The notes under the pieces: model-generated
What the model saw: only the letters and a program-made list of their open reading frames with translations
Told to the model about the DNA's origin: nothing
Databases searched by the model: none
Made by a program: the position numbers and the translations under genes
Shown here: positions 7,852 through 26,126 of the stretch, one piece after another
Position numbering within the stretch: position 1 is the stretch's first letter
Layout: the number at the start of each line of letters is the position of its first letter
Assembly: GCA_002773855.1 (NCBI GenBank)
Contig: PEZY01000005.1
Location: forward strand, 122,532 to 186,531
Length of the DNA: 64,000 nucleotides
Direction: 5' to 3'
Source of the DNA: Candidatus Buchananbacteria bacterium CG10_big_fil_rev_8_21_14_0_10_33_19
Lineage (GTDB): Bacteria > Patescibacteriota > Patescibacteriia > 2-01-FULL-39-33

Positions 7852-7875
7852 TTTTGTCAGTAAATACAACATCTA

Positions 7876-7902
7876 AAAAACCCGCTTTGAGCGGGTTTTT
7901 TA
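7876..7902 (+). terminator. Rho-independent terminator after clpC (AAACCCGC-TTTGA-GCGGGTTTTTTATTT)
   Basis: GC-rich 8-bp stem followed by a T-run immediately after the clpC stop. Confidence 0.6.
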
Positions 7903-7957: not shown

Positions 7958-8611
7958 TTGAAGATAAAAATGTCTGATAACTTAGCTCACAAATTAAATA
8001 GTTATAATTTTAATAACCAATCGTCAGTTACTAATGTAAAAGACAATTCTTTCAATTCTAATTCACCACAGCTAACCATAGATAGGTTAAAACATCAATC
8101 TAAAAATACCGACAAAACAGCCAATAACAATCAACCAAATAATAGTCCAGCCAGTCAATTAAACCAAGCTAAAAACATAGCTAGCAAAGCCTTGTCTGGC
8201 AATCTGACTGGATCAGCCACTGACAGCGTTGAGATGGGCACGCAAGTAGGCTCACAATGGCTACTCACTACTCTATGGGGTTCAGTTTGGGTAGATTGGA
8301 CATTACTATCACTACTAGGTTTAAATGTTTTTTTAGCTTTTTCACTGCTACTACCAAATTATGTTTGTCAGTTTGGTGACGATTATTTAATTGGTAAATG
8401 GCTACCGAGCAAAGATTTAGCCAAATGGACAGAAATTATTTTACTAATGATTATTAACGCTTTTATTTTGACTATTATTTTAATGCTAACATACCTTGTC
8501 TATAAATTTGCCACTTGTGGTACCTGGGATTTATTTAATTCATGGTTATCAGGTGCTCTACCAGGTGGTGACACAGCCTTGTCGGCAGTTCAAAAAAGAT
8601 GTTTTCAATAA
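7958..8611 (+). CDS. Hypothetical membrane protein (N/Q/S-rich N-terminal low-complexity region, three C-terminal TM helices)
   Basis: ORF with a hydrophobic C-terminal half and no recognisable domain. Confidence 0.45.
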   Translation: MKIKMSDNLAHKLNSYNFNNQSSVTNVKDNSFNSNSPQLTIDRLKHQSKNTDKTANNNQPNNSPASQLNQAKNIASKALSGNLTGSATDSVEMGTQVGSQWLLTTLWGSVWVDWTLLSLLGLNVFLAFSLLLPNYVCQFGDDYLIGKWLPSKDLAKWTEIILLMIINAFILTIILMLTYLVYKFATCGTWDLFNSWLSGALPGGDTALSAVQKRCFQ

Positions 8612-8637
8612 AAATAATAAATAAATAATTTATAATT

Positions 8638-9888
8638 ATGAATTTAGACTGGAAAAAATTAGGAATAATGGCTTTATTTTTAGGCGCAGTGGCTCTATTT
8701 GCTTTTTTTATTTACTATTTCTTTTTTAGACAATTCATAACCCCCTCAGAAACAGTAGTCACCAATACTAATCAAACCACCGGTCAATTACCGGTCACTA
8801 TTAACATCAATGGCCGAATCTATACTGTTAATTCTAATACTGGACTACCTGTTACTAACGATAATACTAACACTATAATTAACACCTCAACTAATAACCA
8901 ACCATCAGAAACAGCTAGCGGTGGTCTAACTACTGTCAATGAACTCACTAAAACTCCATCACTCTTTGCCATAGCTACCAAAAACGGCCAAGTTATTTAC
9001 TACAACCCGGCTGATGGCAAATTCTATACCTTATCAGCTGATGGCGATATCAAAGAATTTAGTGATGAAGTTTTTTTTAATGTAAGTGGAGCTATTTGGT
9101 CTCAAAATAGAGACAAAGCCATTTTAGAATATCCCGATGGTTCTAATATAATTTATGATTTTAAAACCAAAGAACAATTAACCCTACCACAGCACTGGTA
9201 TGATTTTACTTTCTCGCCTACCGACCAGCAAATTGCTTTTAAAAGTGGGGCCCTAGATCCAGAAAATAGATTTTTAGCAGTAGCTAAATTAGACGGCTCT
9301 CAACCAATTATTTTAGAAAATTTAAATGACCAAGGTGACAAATTTAATGTTAATTGGTCACCTAATCAACAGATGGTAGCCACCTTCACTCAAGGTAAAG
9401 ATTTAGATAAATCAGAAGTTTATTTTGTTGGCCTCAACAACGAAAATTTTAAATATATGCTAGTTGAAGGTCGTGATTTTAGAGGCCAGTGGTCACCGAC
9501 TGGTGACAAAATGGTTTATAGTGTTTATAGTTCTAATAATGATTTCAAACCTCAACTTTGGGTATCCGATGCTGGCGCTAATACTATTGGCAATAATCGT
9601 CACAGTATTGGTTTGGAAACTTGGGCTGACAAATGTACTTTTTCCAGTAACAGTAAACTTTACTGCGCTGTGCCTAATAGTTTACCAGTAGGGGCTGGTA
9701 TGAATTCTTTAGTTGCTAATAGTACCGCAGACAAACTATATGAAATTAATTTAGACACTGGTGCCAAAACCTTAATTGCCAATCCAGACGGCGATCACAC
9801 TATGTCTAATATAATAATCAACGAAAATCTTAATTATTTAATGTTTACTGATACTAACAATAATAAAATCTATAAAATTAATCTATAA
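8638..9888 (+). CDS. Membrane-anchored beta-propeller protein with PD40/TolB-like WSP repeats
   Basis: N-terminal TM. Repeated WSPNQQ / WSPTGDK motifs typical of PD40 blades. Confidence 0.5.
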   Translation: MNLDWKKLGIMALFLGAVALFAFFIYYFFFRQFITPSETVVTNTNQTTGQLPVTININGRIYTVNSNTGLPVTNDNTNTIINTSTNNQPSETASGGLTTVNELTKTPSLFAIATKNGQVIYYNPADGKFYTLSADGDIKEFSDEVFFNVSGAIWSQNRDKAILEYPDGSNIIYDFKTKEQLTLPQHWYDFTFSPTDQQIAFKSGALDPENRFLAVAKLDGSQPIILENLNDQGDKFNVNWSPNQQMVATFTQGKDLDKSEVYFVGLNNENFKYMLVEGRDFRGQWSPTGDKMVYSVYSSNNDFKPQLWVSDAGANTIGNNRHSIGLETWADKCTFSSNSKLYCAVPNSLPVGAGMNSLVANSTADKLYEINLDTGAKTLIANPDGDHTMSNIIINENLNYLMFTDTNNNKIYKINL

Positions 9889-9895
9889 TTTAAAT

Positions 9896-10630
9896 ATGAA
9901 GGCCAACAAAAAAACCAACCAAAGAAATTATTTAAAATTTATTCTTATAGCTATTGGAGTTTTTTTTATTACTCTACTATTATTGGCTATGTTTACTACC
10001 AAATCAGTAGCTACTGTCAATAATCCTCTGGCCAATATACTCAAAGACTTCGAAAACCAATCTACAATTGAATCTTCTAATTTATTAAGTTATGTAAGGC
10101 AAAATACTATCACCGAACCAACTATTAATAGTCACTCTCCTGTTTTAGGCAATACCGATGCTCCAGTTACAATATTTGAATTTTCCTGTTACGGTTGCCC
10201 AGCTAGTCGTGATATTCAACCTGTTTTAAAAAATATTTTAAATAAATACTCTGATCAAGTAAAAATTGTTTGGAAAGACCTGCCTATACCAGACCTCTAT
10301 CCTCAAGCTGAATTAGCTCATTTAGCTTCTAGATGTGCTGGGGATCAAGGTAAGTTCTGGGAATACCATAATTTACTATGGCAAAACCAAGATAACTTTT
10401 CGATTGATAATTTAAAAAGCATTGGTAAAAGTTTAAAACTTGATACCAATAAACTATCCAACTGTATAAATACCAAACAATTTCAAAATTTAATTGACCA
10501 AGATGTTAGTGAAGCCGCTGATTTGGCAATTTCTGGCACTCCACATTTTTATGTCAACAATCAAGAAATCTTTGGTGTGGCCACCCTAGAAGATTTCGAA
10601 ATAGTTATTAATGCCGAACTAAACAGATAA
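9896..10630 (+). CDS. DsbA-family thiol:disulfide oxidoreductase (thioredoxin fold)
   Basis: N-terminal TM anchor, CYGC CxxC active-site motif in thioredoxin-like context, 244 aa. Confidence 0.65.
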   Translation: MKANKKTNQRNYLKFILIAIGVFFITLLLLAMFTTKSVATVNNPLANILKDFENQSTIESSNLLSYVRQNTITEPTINSHSPVLGNTDAPVTIFEFSCYGCPASRDIQPVLKNILNKYSDQVKIVWKDLPIPDLYPQAELAHLASRCAGDQGKFWEYHNLLWQNQDNFSIDNLKSIGKSLKLDTNKLSNCINTKQFQNLIDQDVSEAADLAISGTPHFYVNNQEIFGVATLEDFEIVINAELNR

Positions 10631-11745
10631 TGAAAATAAATCAAAAAAAACTAATTATCATCTTCTTACTTTCATTTTTTTTAATGAACGTATCGAATTT
10701 TTTCGGCAATAATATTGCCCTGGCTCAAGGCGAGGCTGAAGGTGAATCCACAGGCGATTCAGAAACAAGCAATACAATTACCTTTACGCCCAATGTTCCT
10801 TTTGGAGATTTCACAGGCGATATACCGGTTGATAGCCAAATACTTTTTAAATATCTTTCTGCTTGGTACGGCTTTGTGGTCGGAGCTGTTGGTATTCTAG
10901 CCACGGTGATTATTATGTGGGGTGGTTTTAAATGGCTCACCTCTCGAGGTAATGCTGCGGCAATTTCTGATGCTAAAGATAGAATTTGGTCGGCGATTAT
11001 TGGTTTAGTTTTAGTTTTTTTATCTTACAATTTATTATATTTAATTAATCCTAGACTACTAACTATTACTCTGCCAGACTTAAAAACAGTTGCTGGTAGC
11101 CATGGCTTTGTTACTCAATCATCTACATTGCCAAGTACTACAACTCAACAACCTGGCACTAGACAATCAGCTAGTGATTTATGTCAAAATTCTAGTAATA
11201 ATGTAATAGATTATAGTAATGTCTCGCCTAGAAATCCTGGGGTAAACTTTCCCACTGAAATGAACGGCTGGTTTGATCAATATGGTGATAGTTATGGTGT
11301 CGACTCAGATATGTTAAGAGCTATTTCTGCCGCTGAGTCTAGTGGTAATCCTAGGGCTGTTAGTCCAGCTGGGGCTTACGGCTTAATGCAAATACTCCCA
11401 TCTACGGCTACTGCCGTGGTCGCTCGTGACTCCAATCTTAGAAATTTACCAGAATTTTCCGATGGTCAAATATCTGGAACGGAATTAATAAATAACCCAG
11501 AGTTAAGCGTGGCTATATCCGCCAGTTTTGTCAGTGCTAATCAGAGTGGACTAGGCCGAGCTGATATTTTTGCCGGCTACAATGCTGGCTATGGCACCGG
11601 ATCTGGCAATGCCCTTAGCCAAAGTCGTGACTGCCCAACTCCTGGAACTAGAGCTTATACTTGTTGTACTAATCCTGGAGGTTTAATTGAAACCCAAGGC
11701 TATGTTAACAACACTATGTCATATTATAATTATTACTCACAATAA
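10630..11745 (+). CDS. T4SS-pilin-like (VirB2/TrbC-like) N-terminal module fused to a C-terminal lytic transglycosylase (SLT) domain
   Basis: Hydrophobic pilin-like core WYGFVVGAVGILATVIIMWGGFKWLTSRGNAAAISDAKDRIWSAIIGLVLVFLSYNLLYLINP. SLT motif AISAAESSGNPRAVSPAGAYGLMQILPSTA in the C-terminal half. ATGA start/stop overlap with dsbA. Confidence 0.6.
   Translation: MKINQKKLIIIFLLSFFLMNVSNFFGNNIALAQGEAEGESTGDSETSNTITFTPNVPFGDFTGDIPVDSQILFKYLSAWYGFVVGAVGILATVIIMWGGFKWLTSRGNAAAISDAKDRIWSAIIGLVLVFLSYNLLYLINPRLLTITLPDLKTVAGSHGFVTQSSTLPSTTTQQPGTRQSASDLCQNSSNNVIDYSNVSPRNPGVNFPTEMNGWFDQYGDSYGVDSDMLRAISAAESSGNPRAVSPAGAYGLMQILPSTATAVVARDSNLRNLPEFSDGQISGTELINNPELSVAISASFVSANQSGLGRADIFAGYNAGYGTGSGNALSQSRDCPTPGTRAYTCCTNPGGLIETQGYVNNTMSYYNYYSQ
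10865..11051 (+). repeat. Near-identical ~187-bp tract shared by the two pilin-like genes (copy 1)
   Basis: 10900-11051 matches 11973-12124 with only a few mismatches, far above the neighbouring divergence. Confidence 0.85.
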
Positions 11746-12626
11746 TGAAAAAAATTACTATTATATTAGCCTGTTTATCATTGTTATTAATATGGTCTAA
11801 TAACTACGTCTTAGCCGCTGATGCAGATTTACCAGTCACCACACCAGCTGAAGTCACAAAAAATTGTGATAACTGTCTTAATGTCCCTATCGGTGGAGTC
11901 AAAACCATACCAAGTTTTTATGAATACATACAATTATGGTATAGTTTTGTGGTCGGTGTAGTTGGCATAATAGCCACGGTTATTATTATGTGGGGTGGTT
12001 TTAAATGGCTCACCTCTCGAGGTAATGCGGCAGCCATTGGTGATGCTAAAGATAGAATTTGGTCGGCGATTATTGGTTTAGTTTTAGTTTTTTTATCTTA
12101 CAATTTATTATATTTAATTAATCCAGAATTAGTTAAAATAAAACTACCAAGTCTCACAACCATTTCTACTACCAATTCACCAACTCATTCATCAAATAAT
12201 CAACCGCCAACTCACCCCGCTGAAGGAGCTAAGTTTGATTTAGAAGCTTTGAAAAAAACCTGTCTAGACGCTATTACCGTTACTGGAGCTGGCTTAAACT
12301 GTAATAGGTTAAATATATCTGGTCCAGTCTACGAAGCTACACTACTAGGATCTAGCGAAATGGGTTATTGGTATAATATTAACGACAATCTTTTAGAAGG
12401 TGTTCAAGAAATAGTTAACCTAATTGGTCAACCTCAAACCATTGAAGGTGTTGATGTTTATGTTATGCCAGGCACTAATCTGGCCTTTAGGGAAATAGAC
12501 AATAATATTTGGCGAGTCGAGACCACTAACCTTGTTGGTTTAATGTTGGAACAAGACACTAATAGCCAAAACATAGTCGCCTGGCCAATGGATATCTGGA
12601 ATAATCTTCATAATATACCAAACTAA
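11745..12626 (+). CDS. T4SS-pilin-like protein (paralogue of 10630..11745 without the SLT domain)
   Basis: Same ~60-aa hydrophobic pilin-like core, near-identical at the DNA level. Different C-terminal domain. Confidence 0.6.
   Translation: MKKITIILACLSLLLIWSNNYVLAADADLPVTTPAEVTKNCDNCLNVPIGGVKTIPSFYEYIQLWYSFVVGVVGIIATVIIMWGGFKWLTSRGNAAAIGDAKDRIWSAIIGLVLVFLSYNLLYLINPELVKIKLPSLTTISTTNSPTHSSNNQPPTHPAEGAKFDLEALKKTCLDAITVTGAGLNCNRLNISGPVYEATLLGSSEMGYWYNINDNLLEGVQEIVNLIGQPQTIEGVDVYVMPGTNLAFREIDNNIWRVETTNLVGLMLEQDTNSQNIVAWPMDIWNNLHNIPN
11938..12124 (+). repeat. Near-identical ~187-bp tract shared by the two pilin-like genes (copy 2)
   Basis: See copy 1. Confidence 0.85.
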
Positions 12627-12627
12627 G

Positions 12628-13974
12628 ATGGCGAAAATAAATACAATCCATGAATGCTCTAAATGTGGAGCTCAATTTTCTAAATGGCAAGGCCGCTGCA
12701 ACGAATGCGGTTCTTGGGGCACTGTCAGTCAAGAAGCTACTAATTTAGAGCCGAAAAAAGATACTGTTAATATATCAGCCGAAAAACCGATCAACTTTAC
12801 AGAGATAAACTTACAAGAAAAAACCAGAATTAAAATTGGCATTGATGAAGTTGATAGAGTGTTAGGTGGCGGCTTAGTAGCCGGCTCTTTAATTTTATTA
12901 GGTGGTGATCCGGGTATTGGCAAATCAACTTTGGCTTTACAAATTGCCCAAGGTATTGGCAATACTCTTTATATTTCTGGTGAAGAATCAGCCAGTCAAA
13001 TAAAAATGAGAGCCGATAGACTAAAATCAAATTTAACTGGCTTAAAATTCATTCCACAAACCAATATCGAAAAAATCATAGCCACTATCCTAGATCAAAA
13101 ACCAGACCTAGCCATTATTGATTCTATTCAGACTATTCATTCTAGTGATTCATCTACTGGTATCGGCTCAGCCGCTCAAATAACTGCCTGTACCACTCAA
13201 TTAATGGAAACGGCTAAGGCTTCTGGCATTCCAATAATTATTATCGGTCATGTTACCAAAGAAGGCTTTGTCGCCGGACCCAAAACTCTAGAGCACTTAG
13301 TTGATACTGTTCTTTATTTAGAAAATGATAGCCGAGATTTTTATAAAATACTTCGAGGCGTTAAAAATCGATTTGGCTCTACTGGCGAAATTGGGGTTTT
13401 TGAGATGACCGAAGTTGGCCTCAAAGAAATCACCAACCCAACAAATATTTTTATTGAGGATCATAACTCACCCGCTTCTGGCACTGCTATTTCTATTGTT
13501 ATGGAAGGTAGTCGAGCTTTCTTAACAGAAATTCAAGCTCTAGCCTCTAAAACTAGTTTTGGCTACCCTCAAAGAAAATCAACCGGTTTTGATTTGAATA
13601 GACTACAAATGATTATTGCTGTTATATCCAAAATGGCCAAAGTTAATTTATCAAATCACGATATCTATTTAAATGTAACTGGTGGTTTAAAAATCAAAGA
13701 AACCGCCACCGATTTAGCAGTCTGTTTGGCTATTGTTTCTGCCTACCTAGAGAAGGCCATTTATCCTAATATGCTAATTCTAGGCGAAGTTGGTCTATCA
13801 GGAGAAATTAGAAATGTCTCTCAAGTAGATAGACGCATAAAAGAAGCCTCTAAACTAAATTTCAATAGAATTATTACCGCCAAAAATCAACATATCAAAA
13901 ACATTCCTAATGTCGAAATAATTCAAGTCTCCAATATCGCTGAAGCCATTAGAATTATCTCTGGTCATCAATAA
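12628..13974 (+). CDS. radA: DNA repair protein RadA/Sms
   Basis: N-terminal C4 zinc ribbon (CSKCGAQFSKWQGRCNECGSWGT), RecA-like Walker A GDPGIGKST, Lon-like C-terminal domain. Confidence 0.85.
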   Translation: MAKINTIHECSKCGAQFSKWQGRCNECGSWGTVSQEATNLEPKKDTVNISAEKPINFTEINLQEKTRIKIGIDEVDRVLGGGLVAGSLILLGGDPGIGKSTLALQIAQGIGNTLYISGEESASQIKMRADRLKSNLTGLKFIPQTNIEKIIATILDQKPDLAIIDSIQTIHSSDSSTGIGSAAQITACTTQLMETAKASGIPIIIIGHVTKEGFVAGPKTLEHLVDTVLYLENDSRDFYKILRGVKNRFGSTGEIGVFEMTEVGLKEITNPTNIFIEDHNSPASGTAISIVMEGSRAFLTEIQALASKTSFGYPQRKSTGFDLNRLQMIIAVISKMAKVNLSNHDIYLNVTGGLKIKETATDLAVCLAIVSAYLEKAIYPNMLILGEVGLSGEIRNVSQVDRRIKEASKLNFNRIITAKNQHIKNIPNVEIIQVSNIAEAIRIISGHQ

Positions 13975-14004
13975 AAAAAACGGCAAATAACTTGCCGTTT
14001 TATT
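13975..14004 (+). terminator. Rho-independent terminator after radA (AAACGGCAA-ATAA-CTTGCCGTTTTATTG)
   Basis: Perfect 9-bp stem plus T-run. Confidence 0.6.
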
Positions 14005-16359: not shown

Positions 16360-16412
16360 TTGTCAACGATATATTAAATGACAAATTTTATTTATAGATA
16401 AGTTATAATTTG

Positions 16413-16484
16413 TGTCCTCAGCAGGAATCGAACCTACATTTTAAGCTCCGCAAGCTCATGTTCTATCCGTTGAACTATGAGGAC
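16413..16484 (-). tRNA. tRNA, anticodon GCG (Arg, reads CGC/CGU). 72 nt, no encoded CCA.
   Basis: Manually folded cloverleaf: acceptor GTCCTCA/TGAGGAC, D-stem GTTC/GAAC, anticodon stem TGAGC/GCTTA, loop TTGCGGA, T-arm GTAGG-TTCGATT-CCTGC. Confidence 0.7.
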
Positions 16485-16514
16485 AAATTAATAATAAATA
16501 TTATTAAGATAAAA

Positions 16515-17012: not shown

Positions 17013-17068
17013 GGGTATAATTTTTAGTAAAAAATATTCATAATATTTTTTAAATAAAGCATTAACTG

Positions 17069-17158
17069 CAGAGAGGAAGGGATTCGAACCCTCGATACGC
17101 TTTAAAAACGTATAACGGATTAGCAATCCGTCGCTTTCAACCACTCAGCCACCTCTCT
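17069..17158 (-). tRNA. tRNA-Ser (anticodon GCT), 90 nt with long variable arm
   Basis: Acceptor AGAGAGG/CCTCTCT, anticodon stem ACGGA/TCCGT with loop TTGCTAA, long variable arm, T-loop TTCGAAT. Confidence 0.8.
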
Positions 17159-17167
17159 ATATTGTCA

Positions 17168-17196
17168 CCACTTCGTTCACTGCGGAGAGGGTGGGA
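17168..17196 (-). repeat. 29-nt direct repeat (copy 1) duplicating the 3' terminus of tRNA-Ser(TGA) plus 14 nt of its 3' flank
   Basis: cacttcgttcactgcggagagggtgggat is identical to 17360-17388. Confidence 0.85.
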
Positions 17197-17359: not shown

Positions 17360-17373
17360 CACTTCGTTCACTG

Positions 17374-18878: not shown

Positions 18879-20777
18879 TTATTCTTGAGATAAAGATTCC
18901 TCAAATTCCTTTTTAGCTTCTTCGATTTCTAATAACTGTCTAGGATCAGAAGTAATCAATTGGTCTTCTGAATAAGAAGCTACCACCTTAATAGCCGCAT
19001 GTTTAGCTCCAGCAAAAAATATACCCTCACCTACACCACACTCTAATAATAAATATTTTTCACCCTCTGTTAATAAAAATGTTTTTTGGATTAAATCCAC
19101 TGCAGCTGGTGACTGTTTCATCAATAATTGAAGTGATGAGTTATTAACAATAGCTTGACCATAAGGCGAAGTTAAAAAATCATTAACATCCTGAGTAATA
19201 GTCGTTACACCTAAATAATATTTTCGACATCTTTTAACTAGAGCGAATATAAACTTAGCACTATCTTCTCTTTGCATTAACCACCAAGCCTCATCAACAA
19301 CTAATATTCTCTTTTTAAGTTCACTTCTTACTACATTCCAAACATAATTAACAATCGTATAAATTGCTAGTGGCTTTAATTCATCCTCTAAATCTCTCAC
19401 GCTAAAAGCTACTAATTTATTGTTCATCTGAACATTAGTTGGATTGTTCAATAAGCCGGCAAATGTACCTTCAGTATATTTTTTTAATCTTAAAACTATG
19501 TTTTCACCATTTTCCATGCCTTCTAAAATTTCCTGAAAATCCTGCATAACTGGTGGCTCAACTCTAGTTAAATCAGCTGAAGCGGTAATATCTTTTTTGG
19601 CATAAGTCTCTAGTAGCGCTCGATCAATAATCGAATCTTCTTCTGGAGTAATATCACCAATCATTAATTTAATTAAGCCCTTTACAGTAATTACACCGCC
19701 TCTAATAATATCATCGGCTTTAGCATCTTCGCCAATTGATCTTGGCAAATCAAAAGGATTAATTTTACTTTCGGAGTTTAGTGACACGTCAATATAGGTT
19801 CCGCCAACAGCATCACAAAGATGTTTATATTCTCTTTCTGGGTCGATAATAATAACCTCTGTACCAAACATCAAGCTTCGCAGCACTTCTAATTTAATAG
19901 TGTAAGATTTACCAGCGCCAGAAGTTGCAAAAACTACAGAATTAGCATTTTGCAAAGAAAACCTGTCAAACAAAATTAAACTATTATTATGACGATTAAT
20001 ACCAAACAACACACCACCATCAGAAGTTAAATCAGAAGACACAAACGGAAAAGAACTAGCCGCTGGTGAAGTATTCATATTAGTCAAAATTTGTAAATCA
20101 TCAGAAGCAATCGGCAATGTAGAATTAAAGCCCTGTTCTGCCTGATAAAACACTCTCCTAGAATAAACTAATGTTGAACCTAGTATATTTTCTATGTTCT
20201 CACAAGAAGTGTCTAATTCTTCTAAGCTCTTACCGTAAACTGTGATGTACATAGCTGTTTGGAAAAAATGTTCCACACCTTGAGTTAAATCATCTCTTAA
20301 TTTTTCCATATCTCGTAGTGCCGTTTCTCGCAGTGGATCACGTGGAGCCCCTTTTTCCGCATCAGAAATTAATCCAGCCTGTAGAGCACCAACCTTCTTC
20401 TTTAATTGTTTTAAAATAACTGAAGCCTTAACCGGATAAAAGTAAATAGCAATATCAGCAGTAGTATCCATATTAATAATCGGCGCAAACCAACCAACAT
20501 TAATATATCTTGGATACTCAATCACAAATATAGTTTTAATAAAATAATCACCCAATTTAATATACGAACTAGTTACCTCCAGTGAGGCCGGCGAAATTAA
20601 ATCTCGAACAGAGACAACCCCTTGACGATAAACACGCTCTTCTTCCAAGATTTTACGACTATCACCAATATCCTGAACCATCATCGCTTTTCTTTGCTGG
20701 GCGTTTAAAGCTTGGGCTTTTTCCTGTTCTAATTGTTTTATTTTATCAACTTGATTTAACTGATTCGGATCAAACAT
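18879..20777 (-). CDS. VirB4/TrbE/CagE-family type IV secretion ATPase
   Basis: Walker A FATSGAGKS, Walker B-like ILVVDEAWWLM (the DEAW motif typical of VirB4), 632 aa. Confidence 0.7.
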   Translation of the reverse strand: MFDPNQLNQVDKIKQLEQEKAQALNAQQRKAMMVQDIGDSRKILEEERVYRQGVVSVRDLISPASLEVTSSYIKLGDYFIKTIFVIEYPRYINVGWFAPIINMDTTADIAIYFYPVKASVILKQLKKKVGALQAGLISDAEKGAPRDPLRETALRDMEKLRDDLTQGVEHFFQTAMYITVYGKSLEELDTSCENIENILGSTLVYSRRVFYQAEQGFNSTLPIASDDLQILTNMNTSPAASSFPFVSSDLTSDGGVLFGINRHNNSLILFDRFSLQNANSVVFATSGAGKSYTIKLEVLRSLMFGTEVIIIDPEREYKHLCDAVGGTYIDVSLNSESKINPFDLPRSIGEDAKADDIIRGGVITVKGLIKLMIGDITPEEDSIIDRALLETYAKKDITASADLTRVEPPVMQDFQEILEGMENGENIVLRLKKYTEGTFAGLLNNPTNVQMNNKLVAFSVRDLEDELKPLAIYTIVNYVWNVVRSELKKRILVVDEAWWLMQREDSAKFIFALVKRCRKYYLGVTTITQDVNDFLTSPYGQAIVNNSSLQLLMKQSPAAVDLIQKTFLLTEGEKYLLLECGVGEGIFFAGAKHAAIKVVASYSEDQLITSDPRQLLEIEEAKKEFEESLSQE

Positions 20778-20789
20778 AAATAAAATTTA

Positions 20790-21467
20790 TTAATATTGTT
20801 CAATATCTAATTTATTAACATCAGACATTTTTTGATTTTCAGACATTACTGGATTGTAGGTATTATAAAACAATTCAATAAGTGATTGGGTATTTAAAAT
20901 TGACGCCCTCAGACCCATACTAGACAAGCCAGAAACTATTTTATCAACACCAATAAATAAATCCTTATGGCGCTTAGCAAATTCTCTTTGATTTAACTTA
21001 ATTAACGTTGTTGGTGACACTATATCACTACTTCTCTGCCAAAAATTTCTTTTCTTGCCAAATGATGGATTATAATAAACTACTACATAGAATCTTTTGG
21101 TCATAATATCACCCAATTCTACTAATTCAGAAATATATTTACGATATTCAGCTGTTTGTAATTTTAACAGATCATTGGTCTGTTCTTGCTCAGCTTTTTT
21201 AATATCTAACAAATAATTATCTAAATTTAATTTTCTAGACTGAATCACAATTTGTAATGTAGTATCTAAAGAATTTAAAAATGACACGTAGCCAGATATA
21301 ATGGCATTTTGTTCGTCTTCTGATTTAAGGGCAAAATTAATACTCGACACTAAAAGCACAGCTCTAAGTGTACCGTCTTTCATTACTACACTATCATCTC
21401 TAACCTCTGAAATAGTCATATAACTTTGAGTACTGGGTGTTGATTTTGTTGCTTTTCTATCCGCCAT
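20790..21467 (-). CDS. Hypothetical protein in the T4SS-like operon (225 aa)
   Basis: ORF tightly packed between VirB4 and a small membrane protein. No domain recognised. Confidence 0.45.
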   Translation of the reverse strand: MADRKATKSTPSTQSYMTISEVRDDSVVMKDGTLRAVLLVSSINFALKSEDEQNAIISGYVSFLNSLDTTLQIVIQSRKLNLDNYLLDIKKAEQEQTNDLLKLQTAEYRKYISELVELGDIMTKRFYVVVYYNPSFGKKRNFWQRSSDIVSPTTLIKLNQREFAKRHKDLFIGVDKIVSGLSSMGLRASILNTQSLIELFYNTYNPVMSENQKMSDVNKLDIEQY

Positions 21468-21489
21468 AATATAATTTATACCTAGTTTA

Positions 21490-21948
21490 TTATTTTAAAT
21501 CATTTATCGAATTAATTATACCCTCACCCTGATAAACGCCGCCAGTATCCACAATTAATGATAGCTCCGATAAATTTGAGGCATTAATAATCTGTCTTTT
21601 AATTTTGGGTACTACTATATTTACTTCTACTGGTTTTTTTAAGCTTAATTTAAGATCTTTTTCATTAACCACTTTTCGCCAAATCTTTAATTTGGGATTT
21701 TTTAAAGTAGCTATAAAATTAAGTAAAAAGTTATGAAAAGGCTGACCATTAATTTTAGCAAAAGCCACGATCATAGTTAAAGCAAACATCAAAAAACCAG
21801 ATACCACAAATGACGAAAAATAAAAAGATTTATAAAAGATAAAAATAATTATCGAACCAATTAAAATTTCAATAAACTGACGAACAGTAATTGGTCCAAT
21901 TATCTTATCTTCAACGTCCAAAAATTGTGGCACGGTTATTTGTTCCAT
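21490..21948 (-). CDS. Small two-TM membrane protein (VirB3/PrgI-like position immediately upstream of the VirB4 module)
   Basis: 152 aa with two adjacent hydrophobic helices. Gene order comparable to VirB3-VirB4 in T4SS loci; the similarity is positional only. Confidence 0.35.
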   Translation of the reverse strand: MEQITVPQFLDVEDKIIGPITVRQFIEILIGSIIIFIFYKSFYFSSFVVSGFLMFALTMIVAFAKINGQPFHNFLLNFIATLKNPKLKIWRKVVNEKDLKLSLKKPVEVNIVVPKIKRQIINASNLSELSLIVDTGGVYQGEGIINSINDLK

Positions 21949-21950
21949 TT

Positions 21951-23480
21951 TTAATACCTTAAATCTTTATTTAATTCCATCACCGAGTTAAATTCTTCTA
22001 TAGATAACGTAGGCTTACCATCTTGCATTCTTTCATTAATTATATCATCAATACCCCTTTCTTGTCGCATACTTTCTTGACCTAACAACCTGTAAAACCG
22101 ATTTACCTCGCTTTTATGCCAAGCATCTATGCCCTCCAATCTCTTAGCGTAAGAATCATTTTCTAATAGTTCTATCTTTTGCTTGATTTTAGCCGTAGCT
22201 TTGTGTGGTGTTTCACCAAGTCGTCTAAAATTAATCAAAGTCATAGTACTTAATTCTTCTATCGGCCCAACTAGAGCTCCACCGACTAAAACACCATCAA
22301 CTAATTTTTTACCAAACCTAATATTTTTTGGTGGTAAGCTAGACTGAGGCATTGGCTGTGGCTGTGGTACTGGTATGTTTTGCTTAATTTCTGGCTGAAC
22401 TGCTTTTAATTCAGTAACTACTGGTGATTTTGGTGTTTCTACTTTTTTAACCGAAGTAAACTTATCATGATTTAAATCAGTATTTAAATCATGATTTATT
22501 TTTGGAAATAAATTATTATTATCTAAATTAACCATTTTAGGCTTGACCATCAAATCATCACCATGAGGAAATTTAATAACCGGCAAACCATCCTCTTCTT
22601 CAATTATTAATTCAGTATGAATGGGTTGTTGCTTGATCGGTTTTTCGATAGTTTTTTCTATCACCATCTCTTCTACCTTTTTCGGCAGACTAATCGGTTG
22701 TTTGTTATCAATAGTTTTTTTAACATCCAAGCTAATTTTACCACGGGTAAATGGTTTTTTAGTCGGAAAAGAAATTGGTTTAACTCCATTTAAATCGCTA
22801 CCAATCTTAGACAATAAACCCTGATCAATTTTAGATTTAGCTAAGGCCACTATTTTTTTAGCCTGCTGGTCATCCATTTCTAAGCCACCAATTTTACGAC
22901 TCTTTTTTAAAGCTTCAATAGTTTCTATTTCATCTCTAATATCCTTTAATCTAGCGATAATGATATTTTTTAAACGACTAAACATTACTTCGTCACCATC
23001 CAAACTATAACCAGATTCTGATATTATTAACTCGGCCAAAGTAGTATAATCATAAACTTTAGCTGATGAATCAATATTAGAAATTATTTGCTTAATTTCT
23101 TCGTCATCGTCAGGAGAAAATGAAATAGAAGTATTTAAATTACTATCATTTTTTGGCAACTCAGTTTTTATTTCACTAGCCGCTGATCTGCCAAGCTCAG
23201 CCAATGCCTCTTCAACACCACTTATTCTATCCTTGATTGGTAATAACCTTTTTTCAATAGCGCTAATAGTAATTTTTTTTACCATTGAATCATCTTTTCT
23301 AATAACTTTTTTCATCTCTGAATAAAAATTTTTAATGTCAGCGCTACCAATAATTATTTTAGAAATTAATTTTATAATAGCTTTCACTTCGTTATCAGTC
23401 AAAGCAAACGGCGCCAACCAAGGGTTGAGCTTTTTTAATTCGACTACATCATCAAATATATTTTGAATTTCTTCGGCCAT
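21951..23480 (-). CDS. Hypothetical protein, Pro/Lys-rich central region (509 aa). T4SS-like operon member.
   Basis: Long ORF, no domain recognised. Low-complexity P/Q/K-rich linker. Confidence 0.45.
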   Translation of the reverse strand: MAEEIQNIFDDVVELKKLNPWLAPFALTDNEVKAIIKLISKIIIGSADIKNFYSEMKKVIRKDDSMVKKITISAIEKRLLPIKDRISGVEEALAELGRSAASEIKTELPKNDSNLNTSISFSPDDDEEIKQIISNIDSSAKVYDYTTLAELIISESGYSLDGDEVMFSRLKNIIIARLKDIRDEIETIEALKKSRKIGGLEMDDQQAKKIVALAKSKIDQGLLSKIGSDLNGVKPISFPTKKPFTRGKISLDVKKTIDNKQPISLPKKVEEMVIEKTIEKPIKQQPIHTELIIEEEDGLPVIKFPHGDDLMVKPKMVNLDNNNLFPKINHDLNTDLNHDKFTSVKKVETPKSPVVTELKAVQPEIKQNIPVPQPQPMPQSSLPPKNIRFGKKLVDGVLVGGALVGPIEELSTMTLINFRRLGETPHKATAKIKQKIELLENDSYAKRLEGIDAWHKSEVNRFYRLLGQESMRQERGIDDIINERMQDGKPTLSIEEFNSVMELNKDLRY

Positions 23481-23483
23481 GAT

Positions 23484-26126
23484 TTAAGTTATATCTTTTA
23501 ATTTATCATATTTCTTAGCCAATTCACTATTAGCTGGTAAACCTGCCTTTAAGCCTTCCAGTTCATCAACTATAGGCTTAACTAATAAACTACCATCTGT
23601 TGAAGCACTCAATCCCTTAATAACATTGGTGTCCAAATTTTCAGCGGCCATTCTTGTCTGTATTGTACTTTGAGTAAGATTTTTCATACTCTCCACATCT
23701 TTAACCGTAGACGTTGACATAATATCCTTTAATATTTGCCTTTTATTGTTATTTAACAATTTCTTTCCGGTTGGATCACTTGGATCAGTAGTCTCGTCTA
23801 TGCTACTTTCTTTAAATTTAGCGCCAGACATCAAAGCGTTCTTAATTTTAGCCCGTTGTTGTTCATTATTTTGTGGCGAAATATCAGTTTCTTCTATCTT
23901 ATTAATCACTGCTTCAAAACTCTTTTTTAACTTCTCTTGAATAGCTGGAGCTTGATCCTTAAACTGACTAGGCTTTATCAAATCACCAAAACTATCTACA
24001 AACTCTTCACTAACTTCTTTCATCTTCTTACCAATATCATTGCCATTATTAGACACAAAGGTTCTAATTGATTCCACATCTTCCTGGCTATTCTCGTCAA
24101 ATGTCTGCATGATATTATTAAAGTTGGTAACCTTATTAAATTTATCACGCTTCTTCTTGCCAGCATCAGTAATTTCTACTTTGCCAGTGTCTGGATTCTC
24201 TTTCTTTTTAAAACTCTCATGAGAAATATTGTCTTTATTCCAAATTTTTTCTCTAGATTCTTTTGATAAATTACCATTCATTTCACCCAAATCCTTCTCA
24301 CTAACATTTTCTAGCAAGAAATCAGCAATATTAATATTTTTATCTTTAAGTAATGACTTATTTAAATCAGCAATCTGCTCACTAGACAGCGCTGGAATCA
24401 TTTCATGAGCCTTGACCTTGCCAGTCTTAACATCTGAAACAAAAGCATCTGTTCTAAATTCTCCCTTATCATTTTTATAAACAGTATCATGGGCCAAGCC
24501 TGGATTATACTTCTTAGTATTTTCTTCAAAAGTAGAGGCTAATTCTGGTGGCAACATCTTCTTAGCATTATTAATCATCTTAATATTTTCATCTCGATTA
24601 ACCTTATCATCATCTCTAAACATACCTTGCTTCATCATCGCCTGAGTAGCCGCAATCTTGGCATATTTATCACCTTCCAAGGCTAATTTTCTTAATTCAC
24701 TCTCACTCTTGCCACCCAAATCCAAAGCCCCACTTCGTGCCGTAATCTTTTCTTGTTCCGCTTTAGCTTTGGTAGTAGCCAATTGAACCTTTCTTTGGTC
24801 AACTGCCTTACCAGCCATCGTACCTACGATTGGAATTCGTCTAGCCCCTGGAATAGCCGTTGCACCCCTTAAAGCCCCAGCACCAACAAGTCCAGCTGTG
24901 CCAAGAGTAGCCTTTTTACCCCATTTTTGTAAATTAGATACACCCTTGCCAGCCCACTCTCCACCCTTAACGCCAGTCTTTTGACCAGCAACTAAACTAC
25001 CCACCATTAAACCAATAATAATTAAAAAATCAAAGAATTTTACTGGGCTGTTTTGTAAATTAGTTAAACCTAATTTATCACCTAATAATTGTTCATCTAA
25101 TCGGACATTATCTTGCAATTGAAGACTTCCGGTTTCTGTAGTCACAGAAGCATTACCACTAGCACTGCTAGCATTATCAATATTAATAGAGCCACTAAAA
25201 AACGATAGATAAAGGAAAAATAACATCACCGGACCGACGACTAAATATTTAGCTAATTCACTCCACCACATCCCAGCATATTGTTGACCCTTAGGAAAAG
25301 TAGTTAGCAGAAAAGCGAGCGGCGATAAAATCACCAAGAACCATAACATCACAATTCTATACACTAAGACTATAGTAATCATCGCCATTACCACCACTGC
25401 TACTACTGATAATATCAAAGCAAAAAGTAAAGTTTTTAAAACCTCAGCTCCATTTAGTCCTCCACCGGGCAATGGATCAGTAAAATCTAAACCTGTTGTA
25501 TCTATGCGATACAAATTTTGTAAGCCTAAGGCTAACAAAATAATATTACCACCCTCACTAGTGCCCTTAATTGCTCCGGCCAACCACAAGGTAATGACCT
25601 GCGAAAAATCAATCAACACACCAGTAAAAACCTTAGAAAAATTAATCAAAACCGCCATCACTAGTAATTTTGGTAACAACTGACGATTATAATTTGGCAC
25701 TCTAAGTATAGTGCCCACGGCAATTACCAGTAAAATCACAATAAAAAAGTTATTAGCCACATCTCGCACAATACTCCAACCGTTTTTAACCACCTGAGTA
25801 TCCAAAAAATGATTGTAACTAGCCACATAGACCATTACACGAACAATTATATTAACCAACCAACTAAAAAAAGTAGCGATGTAAAACACAATCCAAGCTA
25901 AGACGTTAACAATGGAGTTTTCGGTACTGTCTGATTTATTTTGATCAATCGATGTAGCATCTGGTGGTGCACCATTTAAAGTTTGAGACAAAGCTTCTCG
26001 ATTAAACGAAACCTCGTCAGAAGTTTCAACAGCGCTTACATTATCAATAAACCCCAAAACCCCCACCACCAAAAAAGTAATTAGAATCAGAAGGCTAATC
26101 AGTTTTTTATTTTTTAAAATCATCAC
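23484..26126 (-). CDS. VirB6/TrbL-like polytopic membrane protein with a long charged C-terminal extension (880 aa)
   Basis: About 8 hydrophobic helices in the first ~400 aa, a Gly-rich segment, then a hydrophilic K/E-rich tail. Located next to VirB4. Confidence 0.5.
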   Translation of the reverse strand: MMILKNKKLISLLILITFLVVGVLGFIDNVSAVETSDEVSFNREALSQTLNGAPPDATSIDQNKSDSTENSIVNVLAWIVFYIATFFSWLVNIIVRVMVYVASYNHFLDTQVVKNGWSIVRDVANNFFIVILLVIAVGTILRVPNYNRQLLPKLLVMAVLINFSKVFTGVLIDFSQVITLWLAGAIKGTSEGGNIILLALGLQNLYRIDTTGLDFTDPLPGGGLNGAEVLKTLLFALILSVVAVVVMAMITIVLVYRIVMLWFLVILSPLAFLLTTFPKGQQYAGMWWSELAKYLVVGPVMLFFLYLSFFSGSINIDNASSASGNASVTTETGSLQLQDNVRLDEQLLGDKLGLTNLQNSPVKFFDFLIIIGLMVGSLVAGQKTGVKGGEWAGKGVSNLQKWGKKATLGTAGLVGAGALRGATAIPGARRIPIVGTMAGKAVDQRKVQLATTKAKAEQEKITARSGALDLGGKSESELRKLALEGDKYAKIAATQAMMKQGMFRDDDKVNRDENIKMINNAKKMLPPELASTFEENTKKYNPGLAHDTVYKNDKGEFRTDAFVSDVKTGKVKAHEMIPALSSEQIADLNKSLLKDKNINIADFLLENVSEKDLGEMNGNLSKESREKIWNKDNISHESFKKKENPDTGKVEITDAGKKKRDKFNKVTNFNNIMQTFDENSQEDVESIRTFVSNNGNDIGKKMKEVSEEFVDSFGDLIKPSQFKDQAPAIQEKLKKSFEAVINKIEETDISPQNNEQQRAKIKNALMSGAKFKESSIDETTDPSDPTGKKLLNNNKRQILKDIMSTSTVKDVESMKNLTQSTIQTRMAAENLDTNVIKGLSASTDGSLLVKPIVDELEGLKAGLPANSELAKKYDKLKDIT

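What the first reader, a model, noticed from the sequence alone, without database searches (positions are those of the whole stretch)
8638..12626. Pilin-like genes with a pilin-lytic transglycosylase fusion and a 187-bp gene-conversion tract, next to DsbA and a PD40 protein
The two adjacent genes 10630..11745 and 11745..12626 share an almost identical 187-bp segment (10865-11051 and 11938-12124) encoding the hydrophobic core WGGFKWLTSRGNAAAI(S/G)DAKDRIWSAIIGLVLVFLSYNLLYLINP. Their N-terminal leaders and C-terminal domains are unrelated. The first carries a soluble lytic transglycosylase domain (ES...GLMQ motif) and the second an unrelated C-terminal domain. Such local identity implies recent gene conversion or duplication that homogenises the pilin module. 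Fusing a VirB2-like pilin module to a VirB1-like muramidase in one polypeptide is unusual. The upstream DsbA and PD40 beta-propeller genes may belong to the same surface-structure unit, encoded far from the VirB4 operon.
Basis: seen in the sequence. Interest (0 to 1): 0.55.

Follow-up and report, generated by a model that had tools for sequence, protein, structure and literature searches.

The report
Pilin-fused cell-wall enzymes, module gene-converted
In a Patescibacteria (CPR) chromosome, two neighbouring genes join the same secretion-system "pilin" membrane hairpin to different outside-the-cell domains, one of them a cell-wall-cutting enzyme, and gene conversion keeps the shared hairpin nearly identical, as it does in related genomes; this links wall-cutting enzymes to the secretion machine that one cultured relative needs for growth on its host.

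Summary
Genes 10630-11745 and 11745-12626 share an in-frame, ungapped tract: 172/187 nt overall, 143/149 nt in the core, with an 84-nt perfect run. The flanks are unrelated. Both genes pass Pfam T4SS_pilin, and the first also carries an SLT lytic transglycosylase domain with its catalytic Glu.

Six syntenic Patescibacteria loci show the same layout: membrane protein, TM-anchored beta-propeller, optional DsbA, then 1-3 pilin-module genes, radA and recG. The C-terminal domains are orthologous between genomes (SLT or GH24 lysozyme; M15 peptidase; unknowns). The pilin modules instead group by genome. In the window, the core is 95% identical between paralogs but at most 86% to orthologs, while the 18 codons upstream keep the orthology signal. 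That mosaic indicates gene conversion, not an artefact, codon constraint or a recent duplication.

The VirB4/PrgI/VirB6 cluster lies only 6.3 kb away, not "far".

Best reading: T4SS-associated, hairpin-tethered peptidoglycan hydrolases that fill the VirB1 role.

VirB2-like pilin arrays in Patescibacteria are already published. I found no description of the enzyme fusions or of the concerted evolution. This is a new variant of a known kind, of moderate interest.

The parts
7874..7902 (.). Strong bidirectional intrinsic-terminator-like hairpin (13-bp stem) after the ClpB-like gene; it marks the upstream limit of the transcription unit
7958..8611 (+). First gene of the unit: membrane protein with a conserved C-terminal two-TM part and an N-terminal low-complexity region of very variable length; no Pfam family; always found upstream of the propeller gene
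   Evidence: synteny
8638..9888 (+). TM-anchored beta-propeller protein (TM helix res 5-34, disordered linker 36-86, propeller about 100-416; invariant Cys333/Cys343); widespread Patescibacteria family
   Evidence: pLDDT 84; Foldseek hits to oligogalacturonate lyase, DPP-IV and TolB propellers, E 1e-10 to 1e-8; no Pfam hit for this sequence
9896..10630 (+). Membrane-anchored DsbA-like thiol-disulfide oxidoreductase (CYGC at residues 98-101)
   Evidence: (Thioredoxin_4 6.3e-23, DSBA 1.6e-16)
10630..11745 (+). Gene A: signal peptide + VirB2-like pilin hairpin + Ser/Thr/Pro/Gln linker + SLT lytic transglycosylase domain (371 aa)
10630..10725 (+). Gene A predicted Sec signal peptide (hydrophobic core res 8-26, A-L-A at 30-32). 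The cleavage site is inferred from the sequence, not predicted by a tool
   Evidence: sequence
10849..11052 (+). Gene A pilin module (res 74-141): TM1 82-100, basic loop KWLTSRGNAAAISDAKDR, TM2 121-139
10865..11051 (+). Copy 1 of the shared tract (172/187 to copy 2; core 10903-11051 is 143/149; perfect run 10968-11051)
11272..11598 (+). Gene A SLT (GH23) domain, res 215-323. Catalytic Glu236 in AAESSGN, GLMQ 251-254 and YN 317-318 are invariant across 18 fusion homologs; Cys335/Cys345 are also invariant
   Evidence: (Slt70 1.7e-10, EmtA, MltC)
11745..12626 (+). Gene B: signal peptide + VirB2-like pilin hairpin + linker + orphan C-terminal domain (293 aa)
11922..12125 (+). Gene B pilin module (res 60-127). 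AlphaFold gives two long helices, 58-90 and 95-125
11938..12124 (+). Copy 2 of the shared tract
12126..12623 (+). Gene B C-terminal region (res 128-293). No detectable homolog other than itself among 5.8e9 clusters or 1.84e9 representatives; fold not predictable (pLDDT < 50)
12628..13974 (+). radA; it starts 2 nt after gene B's stop, is probably co-transcribed, and is the conserved downstream neighbour; a terminator-like hairpin lies at 13977-14001
   Evidence: synteny
18879..26126 (-). Monoderm-type T4SS cluster: VirB4-like ATPase 18879-20777, PrgI/VirB3-like 21490-21948, TrbL/VirB6-like 23484-26126, plus three genes with no Pfam family. No peptidoglycan hydrolase and no pilin module here

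Best explanation
The region is part of a conserved chromosomal operon of a class-ABY1 Patescibacterium (Falkowbacteria/Buchananbacteria). The operon runs from 7958 to 13974 and sits next to the cell's monoderm-type type IV secretion system. Genes A and B each encode a Sec signal peptide and a VirB2-like two-helix membrane hairpin. In that hairpin the N-terminus faces out, the basic loop KWLTSRGN...DAKDR faces the cytoplasm, and the C-terminus faces out. A flexible Ser/Thr/Pro linker and an extracytoplasmic domain follow. In gene A that domain is an intact GH23 lytic transglycosylase. In related genomes the sister genes carry a GH24 lysozyme or an M15 peptidase. In gene B it is an orphan domain of unknown fold. 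I propose that the hairpin is a common module that tethers these enzymes at or in the T4SS, where they cut peptidoglycan locally. That is the VirB1 role, otherwise missing from the cluster. The neighbouring membrane-anchored DsbA would oxidise the invariant Cys pairs of the exported domains. The shared module is homogenised within each genome by repeated gene conversion between the tandem copies. The tracts are bounded by the ends of homology, so the leaders and C-terminal domains evolve as ordinary orthologs. Shown here: the domain content, the hydrophobic segments on which the topology is based, the operon packing, the synteny, and the conversion mosaic. Inferred: the in/out orientation of the hairpin, physical association with the T4SS, enzymatic activity, the target wall (own or host), DsbA dependence, and any selective need for identical modules.
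For: Domains: T4SS_pilin is above the Pfam cut-off in both genes, and SLT scores 5e-18 in gene A. SLT relatives in the PDB include Slt70, EmtA and MltC. The catalytic Glu and the GLMQ and YN motifs are invariant in 18 fusion homologs. Topology: a signal-peptide-like segment plus two hydrophobic segments of 19 or more residues, and a helix-loop-helix in AlphaFold. Operon: 1-nt gene overlaps at 10630 and 11745, a 2-nt gap to radA, and terminators at 7874-7902 and 13977-14001. Synteny of propeller, optional DsbA, 1-3 pilin-module genes, radA and recG holds in 6 further loci at 48-80% protein identity. C-terminal domains fall into orthologous classes across genomes: SLT, GH24, M15 and others. T4SS link: VirB4, PrgI and VirB6 lie 6.3 kb away. 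The same radA-recG-comF-virB4 layout is described for ABY1 (PMC12102498). In Southlakia epibionticum the T4SS cluster holds separate plain PF18895 pilins, a lysozyme-like protein (SEML1_0006) and an M15B-like protein (SEML1_0007) (PMC10633639 supplement). PMC12102498 states that the peptidase and lysozyme homologues encoded next to virB4 in that species are essential. These are the enzyme classes that are fused to the module here, so this is a Rosetta-stone type argument. Conversion: the nearest nucleotide neighbour of a module is a same-genome paralog in 13 of 15 cases. In the window, the 28-codon run region has 1 synonymous difference between paralogs, against 8-9 synonymous plus 3-5 non-synonymous differences to orthologs. 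Core and upstream segments differ in their pattern (Fisher p = 2.5e-5), and per-segment identities are incongruent. Genome-specific residues are shared by paralogs in five more same-contig pairs.
Against: No experiment or structure ties these proteins to the T4SS. The pilin genes lie on the opposite strand from the T4SS cluster, separated by housekeeping genes, and are co-transcribed with radA. The link to classical VirB2 is weak: TrbC PF04956 is below its cut-off (23.9 and 16.3 bits vs 27.9), and a module profile finds no solved pilin in the PDB. Mature proteins of about 270-340 aa are far larger than any characterised VirB2 pilin. Gene conversion between tandem repeats can be neutral, so homogenisation alone does not show a functional need. 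DsbA is absent from two syntenic loci, L007 and L008. Gene B's domain gives no functional clue. The comparative test rests on seven metagenome-derived loci.
Confidence: 0.6

Rival explanations
1. The proteins are housekeeping autolysins with a generic anchor. They are ordinary cell-wall remodelling enzymes for growth and division of a reduced-genome cell. The two-helix hairpin is only a membrane anchor that happens to match the T4SS_pilin profile. There is no functional tie to the T4SS.
For: The genes sit among housekeeping genes (clpB, radA, recG) and are packed with radA. The classical TrbC/VirB2 profile is below its cut-off and no solved pilin is matched. Every module in this clade carries a large extra domain, which is unlike known pilins.
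Against: The loop and helix residues of the module are very strongly conserved: GGFKWLTSRGN and 26 invariant columns in total across 25 proteins. That is more than a passive anchor would need. The locus is part of the ABY1 T4SS neighbourhood. The same enzyme classes lie inside the T4SS cluster of S. epibionticum together with plain PF18895 pilins and are reported essential there. The window's T4SS cluster has no hydrolase of its own.
Confidence: 0.2
2. The modules form an enzyme-bearing pilus. They polymerise or co-polymerise into an extracellular T4SS filament whose subunits display peptidoglycan hydrolases and other domains on the outside. The filament is used to breach the wall of the host cell. 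Identical modules are needed for co-assembly.
For: The proposed topology puts the C-terminal domain outside the cell (inferred). In solved conjugative pili both termini of the pilin face the exterior, and epitopes fused to F-pilin are displayed; this is from my own knowledge and was not checked here. No plain, domain-less pilin module exists in the 64-kb window. Reviews speculate about a pilus in Patescibacteria T4SSs (PMC12857230). The modules evolve in concert in several genomes.
Against: A 17-25 kDa domain on every subunit is sterically unprecedented for VirB2-type filaments. No pilus has been seen. Only 64 kb of the genome was examined, so a plain major pilin may lie elsewhere. Homogenisation may be neutral.
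Confidence: 0.15
3. The identical tract is not gene conversion. It is instead an assembly collapse, a very recent whole-gene duplication, or nucleotide-level constraint such as an embedded RNA or regulatory element.
For: A single paired tract in one assembly cannot tell these options apart.
Against: Identical proteins were recovered on 17 contigs from several sources. The same pattern appears in independent genomes. Orthologs differ freely at synonymous sites in the same codons, 8-9 of 28, so there is no nucleotide-level constraint. The flanks keep old orthology (gene A's C-terminus is 75% identical to L002 gene 1, and gene B's leader is closest to L002 gene 2), so the paralogs pre-date the species split while the core post-dates it. 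Rfam finds nothing there.
Confidence: 0.03

Closest known systems
VirB2-like (PF18895) pilin arrays of Patescibacteria T4SSs (S. epibionticum SEML1_0014-0019; survey of 3,035 genomes, PMC12102498; PMC10633639)
   Same: Same Pfam family. Tandem arrays of 2-11 genes. Chromosomal, near a monoderm-type VirB4/PrgI/VirB6 cluster. The ABY1 context with radA, recG and comF matches.
   Different: The published arrays are described as small, sequence-divergent pilins (mean 25% and at most 54% identity within an array; the Se pilins are about 126-190 aa). Here every module is fused to a 150-230 aa extracytoplasmic domain, and the modules are 88% identical at the protein level (60/68; 87% at the nucleotide level, 95% in the core) within the genome because of gene conversion.
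VirB1-type and Gram-positive T4SS peptidoglycan hydrolases (VirB1, PrgK of pCF10, TraG of pIP501, CwlT of ICEBs1)
   Same: An SLT/GH23 or other muralytic domain encoded with a T4SS. The monoderm versions are membrane-anchored, and multi-enzyme combinations (glycosidase plus peptidase) occur.
   Different: Those enzymes use a simple N-terminal TM segment or are soluble, and the glycosidase and peptidase are domains of one protein. Here each enzyme sits on its own copy of a pilin-like hairpin. The genes lie outside the core T4SS cluster.
Pilin gene conversion and paralog families (Neisseria pilE/pilS; VirB2 paralogs of Bartonella and Anaplasma, cited in PMC12102498)
   Same: Non-reciprocal recombination between pilin gene copies, and multiple pilin paralogs in host-associated bacteria.
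   Different: In those systems recombination diversifies the exposed part. Here it homogenises the membrane or assembly module while the exposed domains stay distinct and orthologous between genomes.
Type IV (T2SS/T4P) major and minor pilins
   Same: By analogy only: a conserved hydrophobic assembly module joined to variable globular domains.
   Different: Unrelated fold and machinery. There is no prepilin peptidase motif here, and the module is a helix-loop-helix after a Sec signal peptide.

Membership tests
T4SS pilin, VirB2/TrbC type (Pfam PF18895 T4SS_pilin; PF04956 TrbC) | Profile match above the curated threshold | tested here: met
   PF18895 scores 34.8 bits (gene A) and 38.3 bits (gene B) against a cut-off of 26.6. 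All 10 paralogs from related loci also pass.
T4SS pilin, VirB2/TrbC type (Pfam PF18895 T4SS_pilin; PF04956 TrbC) | Recognisable relationship to experimentally characterised VirB2/TrbC/TraA pilins | tested here: inconclusive
   TrbC PF04956 scores 16.3 and 23.9 bits, below the 27.9 cut-off (E 0.012 and 4.8e-5). A module profile finds no solved pilin in the PDB (best E 0.34, unrelated membrane proteins).
T4SS pilin, VirB2/TrbC type (Pfam PF18895 T4SS_pilin; PF04956 TrbC) | Signal peptide followed by two hydrophobic helices joined by a short basic loop | tested here: met
   Kyte-Doolittle segments are at 8-26, 82-100 and 121-139 in gene A, and at 6-24, 68-86 and 107-125 in gene B. The loop is KWLTSRGNAAAI(S/G)DAKDR. 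AlphaFold gives helices 58-90 and 95-125 in gene B. The signal-peptide cleavage site is inferred from the sequence only.
T4SS pilin, VirB2/TrbC type (Pfam PF18895 T4SS_pilin; PF04956 TrbC) | Small protein consisting essentially of the hairpin (mature size about 70-130 aa) | tested here: not met
   The proteins are 371 and 293 aa, with 230 and 166 residues after the module. The S. epibionticum pilins are 126-190 aa.
T4SS pilin, VirB2/TrbC type (Pfam PF18895 T4SS_pilin; PF04956 TrbC) | Encoded with VirB4/VirB3/VirB6 genes | tested here: met
   VirB4-like, PrgI and TrbL/VirB6 genes lie at 18879-26126, 6.3 kb away on the opposite strand. The same arrangement occurs in L004 and is described for ABY1. 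The link is loose: the pilin genes are not in the same operon.
T4SS pilin, VirB2/TrbC type (Pfam PF18895 T4SS_pilin; PF04956 TrbC) | Polymerises into a pilus, or is required for substrate transfer | not testable with these tools
   This needs microscopy or genetics.
Lytic transglycosylase, SLT / GH23 (Pfam PF01464); functional class VirB1 | SLT profile match, with solved relatives | tested here: met
   PF01464 scores 65.1 bits, E 5.3e-18, over residues 215-323. PDB relatives are Slt70 (1.7e-10), EmtA and MltC.
Lytic transglycosylase, SLT / GH23 (Pfam PF01464); functional class VirB1 | Catalytic Glu in the E-S motif, plus the GLMQ and AYNxG motifs | tested here: met
   E236 and S237 (AAESSGN), G251-L-M-Q254 and Y317-N318. 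E236, G251, M253, Q254, Y317 and N318 are invariant in 18 fusion homologs.
Lytic transglycosylase, SLT / GH23 (Pfam PF01464); functional class VirB1 | Muralytic activity needed for T4SS assembly | not testable with these tools
   This needs zymography or genetics.
DsbA-like thiol-disulfide oxidoreductase | Thioredoxin fold profile with a CxxC active site, located outside the cytoplasm | tested here: met
   Thioredoxin_4 6.3e-23 and DSBA 1.6e-16. C98-Y-G-C101 and an N-terminal TM segment at 15-33.
PD40 / TolB-type beta-propeller (Pfam PF07676) | PD40 repeat profile match | tested here: not met
   No Pfam family at E <= 0.1 for 8638-9888. Some homologs carry precomputed PF07676 or PF26550 hits.
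PD40 / TolB-type beta-propeller (Pfam PF07676) | Beta-propeller fold | tested here: met
   The AlphaFold model has mean pLDDT 84 and is all-beta from about residue 100 to 416. Foldseek against the PDB matches oligogalacturonate lyase, DPP-IV and S9 peptidase propellers, TolB and WD40 proteins at E 4e-10 to 1e-8, with TM about 0.4-0.5. The blade type and number were not resolved.
Concerted evolution by gene conversion (a process, not a family) | Paralogs within a genome are more alike than orthologs between genomes, in a bounded tract whose flanks are phylogenetically incongruent with it | tested here: met
   See the report text.

The most novel reading that the evidence does not exclude
The VirB2-like hairpin is a universal carrier module. 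Its copies co-polymerise into a T4SS filament, or into a short stalk, whose subunits display a glycosidase, a peptidase and orphan domains. Such an 'enzymatic pilus' would let an ultrasmall epibiont drill through the host cell wall. Gene conversion would be retained because all carriers must fit one lattice.
Probability: 0.15. Interest if true: 0.85.

Novelty: new variant of a known kind. Interest (0 to 1): 0.55.

Why it matters
The T4SS of Patescibacteria is essential for epibiotic growth in the one species tested, yet its function is unknown. Recent surveys conclude that most genomes with VirB2-like pilins lack a VirB1 (PMC12102498).

This locus shows that in at least one large lineage the wall-cutting enzymes are present but were missed. 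They are fused to the pilin module itself. They belong to the same enzyme classes that lie as separate genes in the T4SS cluster of Saccharibacteria and are reported essential there (PMC12102498). That gives a concrete, testable link between pilin-like proteins and peptidoglycan breaching.

The locus is also a clean natural example of module-restricted concerted evolution. It suggests that T4SS annotation should look for composite pilin proteins.

Tried and rejected
1. A genome-contig scan with the alignment of fusion proteins picked the generic GLMQ motif. It returned ordinary SLTs from unrelated bacteria.

2. Gene B's C-terminal domain stayed unassigned. The word-index search, the exhaustive phmmer search of 1.84e9 representatives and a local phmmer against all fetched proteins found only the protein itself plus two low-complexity hits, which I regard as spurious. 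AlphaFold gave pLDDT < 50 for that region, so I ran no fold search on it.

3. A module profile against PDB sequences found no pilin.

4. Pfam gave nothing for the propeller protein or the first operon gene.

5. A viral-contig scan with gene B found no relatives. I considered a phage or SAR-endolysin origin and dropped it, given this result and the housekeeping synteny.

6. A further pilin module was sought among all ORFs of at least 40 aa in the window by phmmer and HMM searches. None was found.

7. Literature searches for pilin-hydrolase fusions or pilin-module gene conversion in Patescibacteria found no description. The library is incomplete, so this is absence of evidence only.

8. The promoter scan was uninformative in this AT-rich DNA: 35 sites against 26 expected.

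Full report
**1. What is in the sequence**

The window is low-GC DNA (about 34%) with the gene content of a Patescibacteria (CPR) chromosome. The two focal proteins occur with identical sequence in public records named Candidatus Falkowbacteria or Buchananbacteria bacterium (NCN07624.1 / PIS06262.1 and NCN07625.1 / PIS06263.1). They are seen on 17 contigs of up to 467.8 kb.

The plus-strand ORFs from 7958 to 13974 are tightly packed. There are single-nucleotide overlaps at 10630 and 11745, and a 2-nt gap before radA. A strong terminator hairpin lies at 7874-7902 and another at 13977-14001. This is most simply one operon:
- an unknown membrane protein (7958-8611);
- a 416-aa protein (8638-9888);
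- a DsbA-like protein (9896-10630);
- gene A (10630-11745);
- gene B (11745-12626);
- radA (12628-13974).

**2. The observation**

The repeat sits at a constant offset of 1073 nt. It has no gaps and the same reading phase in both genes.
- The near-identical core is 10903-11051 (143/149, 96%).
- The core ends in an 84-nt perfect run. Identity then drops abruptly at the end of the ...LINP codons.

The 26 differences in the 204-nt module are far from evenly spread. The permutation p is 1e-5 for all sites and 9e-4 for third codon positions.

Pfam places T4SS_pilin (PF18895) above its cut-off in both proteins, and SLT (PF01464, E 5e-18) in gene A. The quoted peptide and the lack of similarity outside the module are correct. 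The one correction is that "almost identical" applies to about 150 nt, not 187.

**3. Anatomy of the two proteins**

Each protein has an N-terminal hydrophobic leader ending in A-L-A or V-L-A. Two further hydrophobic segments of at least 19 residues follow, separated by a basic loop, KWLTSRGNAAAI(S/G)DAKDR. AlphaFold models the gene B module as a helix-loop-helix, residues 58-90 and 95-125, with pLDDT 65-76.

If the leader is cleaved and the positive-inside rule holds, the loop is cytoplasmic and the C-terminal domain lies outside the cell. This orientation is inferred.

In gene A a Ser/Thr/Pro/Gln linker of about 45 residues leads to a GH23 domain. Its catalytic Glu236 and its GLMQ and YN motifs are invariant across 18 fusion homologs. 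So is a Cys335/Cys345 pair. Slt70, EmtA and MltC are the closest solved relatives.

Gene B's last 166 residues have no detectable relative in either large protein search. The region could not be folded with confidence.

**4. The neighbours**

The 416-aa protein has no Pfam hit of its own. It does have more than 1,600 homologs in Patescibacteria, and a few of them carry PD40 or Tricorn-type annotations.

An AlphaFold model built from 42 sequences (pLDDT 84) shows a TM helix, a disordered linker and an all-beta domain. That domain matches the propellers of oligogalacturonate lyase, DPP-IV and S9 peptidases, TolB and WD40 proteins. "Membrane-anchored beta-propeller" is therefore supported. "PD40" as a family assignment is not shown.

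The DsbA-like protein has a TM anchor and a CYGC motif. Invariant Cys pairs occur in the propeller protein (C333/C343) and in the SLT fusion family. This fits a local oxidase-substrate relationship, which is an inference.

**5. Distance to the T4SS**

On the minus strand lie a VirB4-like ATPase (18879-20777), a PrgI/VirB3-like gene (21490-21948) and a TrbL/VirB6-like gene (23484-26126). A 3,003-aa CBM-containing protein follows.

The pilin-module genes are thus 6.3 kb from virB4. Only radA, recG, three tRNAs and a comF-like gene lie between them. A published survey describes exactly this neighbourhood for the T4SS of class ABY1 (PMC12102498).

No hydrolase was detected in the T4SS cluster. No other pilin module was found anywhere in the window.

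**6. Related loci**

Six syntenic loci were recovered via orthologs. All show LemA, HtpX and ClpB (absent from L007), then the membrane protein, the propeller, an optional DsbA, 1-3 pilin-module genes, radA and recG. The propeller proteins are 49-80% identical to the window's.

The C-terminal domains form orthologous classes across genomes:
- SLT in the window, L002, L004 and L007.
- GH24 phage-type lysozyme in L005 and L006.
- An M15 peptidase in L002, L004, L005 and L006. Pfam detects it only in L002 gene 2; the others are linked to it by BLASTP and by the SxYR...H..G.A.D...H.D motif.
- A third class shared by L005 and L006.
- Singletons, including gene B.

Database hits add YkuD fusions. 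The fusion is therefore a recurrent, conserved architecture in this lineage, not a one-off.

**7. Gene conversion**

If the modules evolved like the rest of each gene, they would group by ortholog class. Instead, the nearest nucleotide neighbour of a module is a paralog from the same genome in 13 of 15 cases. Within-genome identity is 77-97.5%, against 56-84% between genomes.

In the window the evidence is a mosaic:
- Core 50 codons: genes A and B are 95.3% identical to each other and 82-86% to the three L002 genes.
- The 18 codons upstream: gene B is 83.3% identical to L002 gene 2 but only 64.8% to gene A.
- The 28 codons of the perfect-run region: 1 synonymous difference between the paralogs, against 8-9 synonymous plus 3-5 non-synonymous differences to the orthologs.

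Synonymous sites therefore diverge freely between species, and constraint at the nucleotide level cannot explain the tract. The core and upstream segments differ significantly (Fisher p = 2.5e-5).

The C-terminal domain of gene A is 75% identical to that of its L002 ortholog. The paralogs are therefore older than the species split, and the core is younger.

Five further same-contig pairs share genome-specific residues, for example MIMW/GLVL versus MLMW/GVVL.

I conclude that there is repeated, module-restricted gene conversion. The tracts are bounded by where homology ends.

Copy number varies from 1 to 3. Gene B's leader resembles L002 gene 2, while its post-module linker resembles L002 gene 3. 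This suggests that unequal crossing-over within the homogenised module has also deleted or reshuffled genes. That is an inference.

**8. How it most likely works**

The best-supported reading is that the hairpin is a shared tether or docking module. It places peptidoglycan-cleaving enzymes, plus domains of unknown function, on the outer face of the membrane at the T4SS, where they supply the VirB1 function.

The strongest indirect support comes from a comparison with Southlakia epibionticum (PMC10633639 supplement; PMC12102498). In that organism the T4SS cluster contains plain PF18895 pilins of about 126-190 aa. It also contains a separate lysozyme-like protein and a separate M15B-like protein, reported as essential by PMC12102498. 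Here the same three elements occur as fusions.

The rivals are (a) housekeeping autolysins with a generic anchor and (b) a filament built from enzyme-bearing subunits. Neither is excluded.

Homogenisation is compatible with a need for all copies to fit one partner. It is also what neutral conversion between tandem repeats would produce, so I do not count it as functional evidence.

**9. Comparison with what is known, and novelty**

VirB2-like pilin arrays in Patescibacteria are published, along with their essentiality in one species and the ABY1 gene neighbourhood (PMC10633639, PMC12102498, PMC12857230). Those papers describe the arrays as small, divergent pilins, with at most 54% identity within an array. 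They state that most genomes with VirB2 homologs lack VirB1.

In the searchable literature I found no mention of pilin-hydrolase fusions or of concerted evolution of the module. Public annotation calls gene A simply a "lytic transglycosylase domain-containing protein" and gene B "hypothetical".

I rate this a new variant of a known kind. The proteins fail one defining trait of VirB2 pilins, small size, and the link to characterised VirB2 proteins is sub-threshold. They are best called pilin-module fusion proteins rather than pilins.

**10. Limits**

- Only 64 kb of the genome was available.
- The comparative set is seven metagenome-derived loci.
- Signal-peptide cleavage, topology, enzyme activity, association with the T4SS and the DsbA dependence are all inferred.
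- The one genome-contig scan was wasted on a generic motif, so the taxonomic breadth beyond the Falkowbacteria/Buchananbacteria-like genomes is not established.

Noticed in passing
window 7958-8611 (+): This is the first gene of the operon. It encodes a membrane protein with a conserved C-terminal two-TM part (LTTLWGSVWVDWTLLSLLGLN...QFGDDYLIGKW). Its N-terminal charged, low-complexity region varies from almost absent (217 aa here, 220 aa in L007) to about 200 extra residues (346-419 aa in L001, L004-L006 and L008). It has no Pfam family and always sits upstream of the propeller gene.
   Followed up: partly
window 26148-35159 (-): A 3,003-aa protein with a CBM_4_9 carbohydrate-binding domain lies directly next to the VirB6-like gene of the T4SS cluster. 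It is a candidate surface adhesin or effector.
   Followed up: no
window 18280-18852, 20790-21467, 21951-23480 (-): Three genes inside or next to the VirB4/PrgI/VirB6 cluster have no Pfam family. No VirB8-like gene, coupling protein or relaxase was recognised in the scanned genes.
   Followed up: no
window 16412-17460 (-): Three tRNA genes (Arg-GCG, Ser-GCT, Ser-TGA) lie between recG and the comF-like gene. The 209-aa ORF 16515-17144 overlaps tRNA-Ser and is probably not a gene.
   Followed up: yes
window 11745-12626 compared with L002:1954-3826: Gene B looks chimeric relative to the three-gene array of L002. Its leader and pre-module part are closest to L002 gene 2 (M15 peptidase). Its post-module linker (ELVKIKLPSL) is closest to L002 gene 3 (KLVEIKLPTL). 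No M15 domain exists anywhere in the window. This suggests unequal crossing-over within the homogenised module.
   Followed up: partly
window 152-2524 and 2555-3685 (-): Two large proteins have no real Pfam assignment. The second starts with a TM segment followed by AAWQEPTLAPPDGNV. The equivalent position in L008 holds a Peptidase_S74-domain protein and a Fib_succ_major protein.
   Followed up: no
L004:8001-10017: In this more distant genome the converted tract is much longer: 309 nt at 93%, and 97.5% in the module. It extends upstream into the Cys-containing extracellular segment (CGY.G.G.G.YCLNINIG), so tract boundaries differ between lineages.
   Followed up: partly
L007 and L008: DsbA is absent from the block in these two loci, and in L007 the SLT fusion is the second rather than the first pilin-module gene. 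Gene order and the DsbA linkage are therefore not fixed.
   Followed up: no
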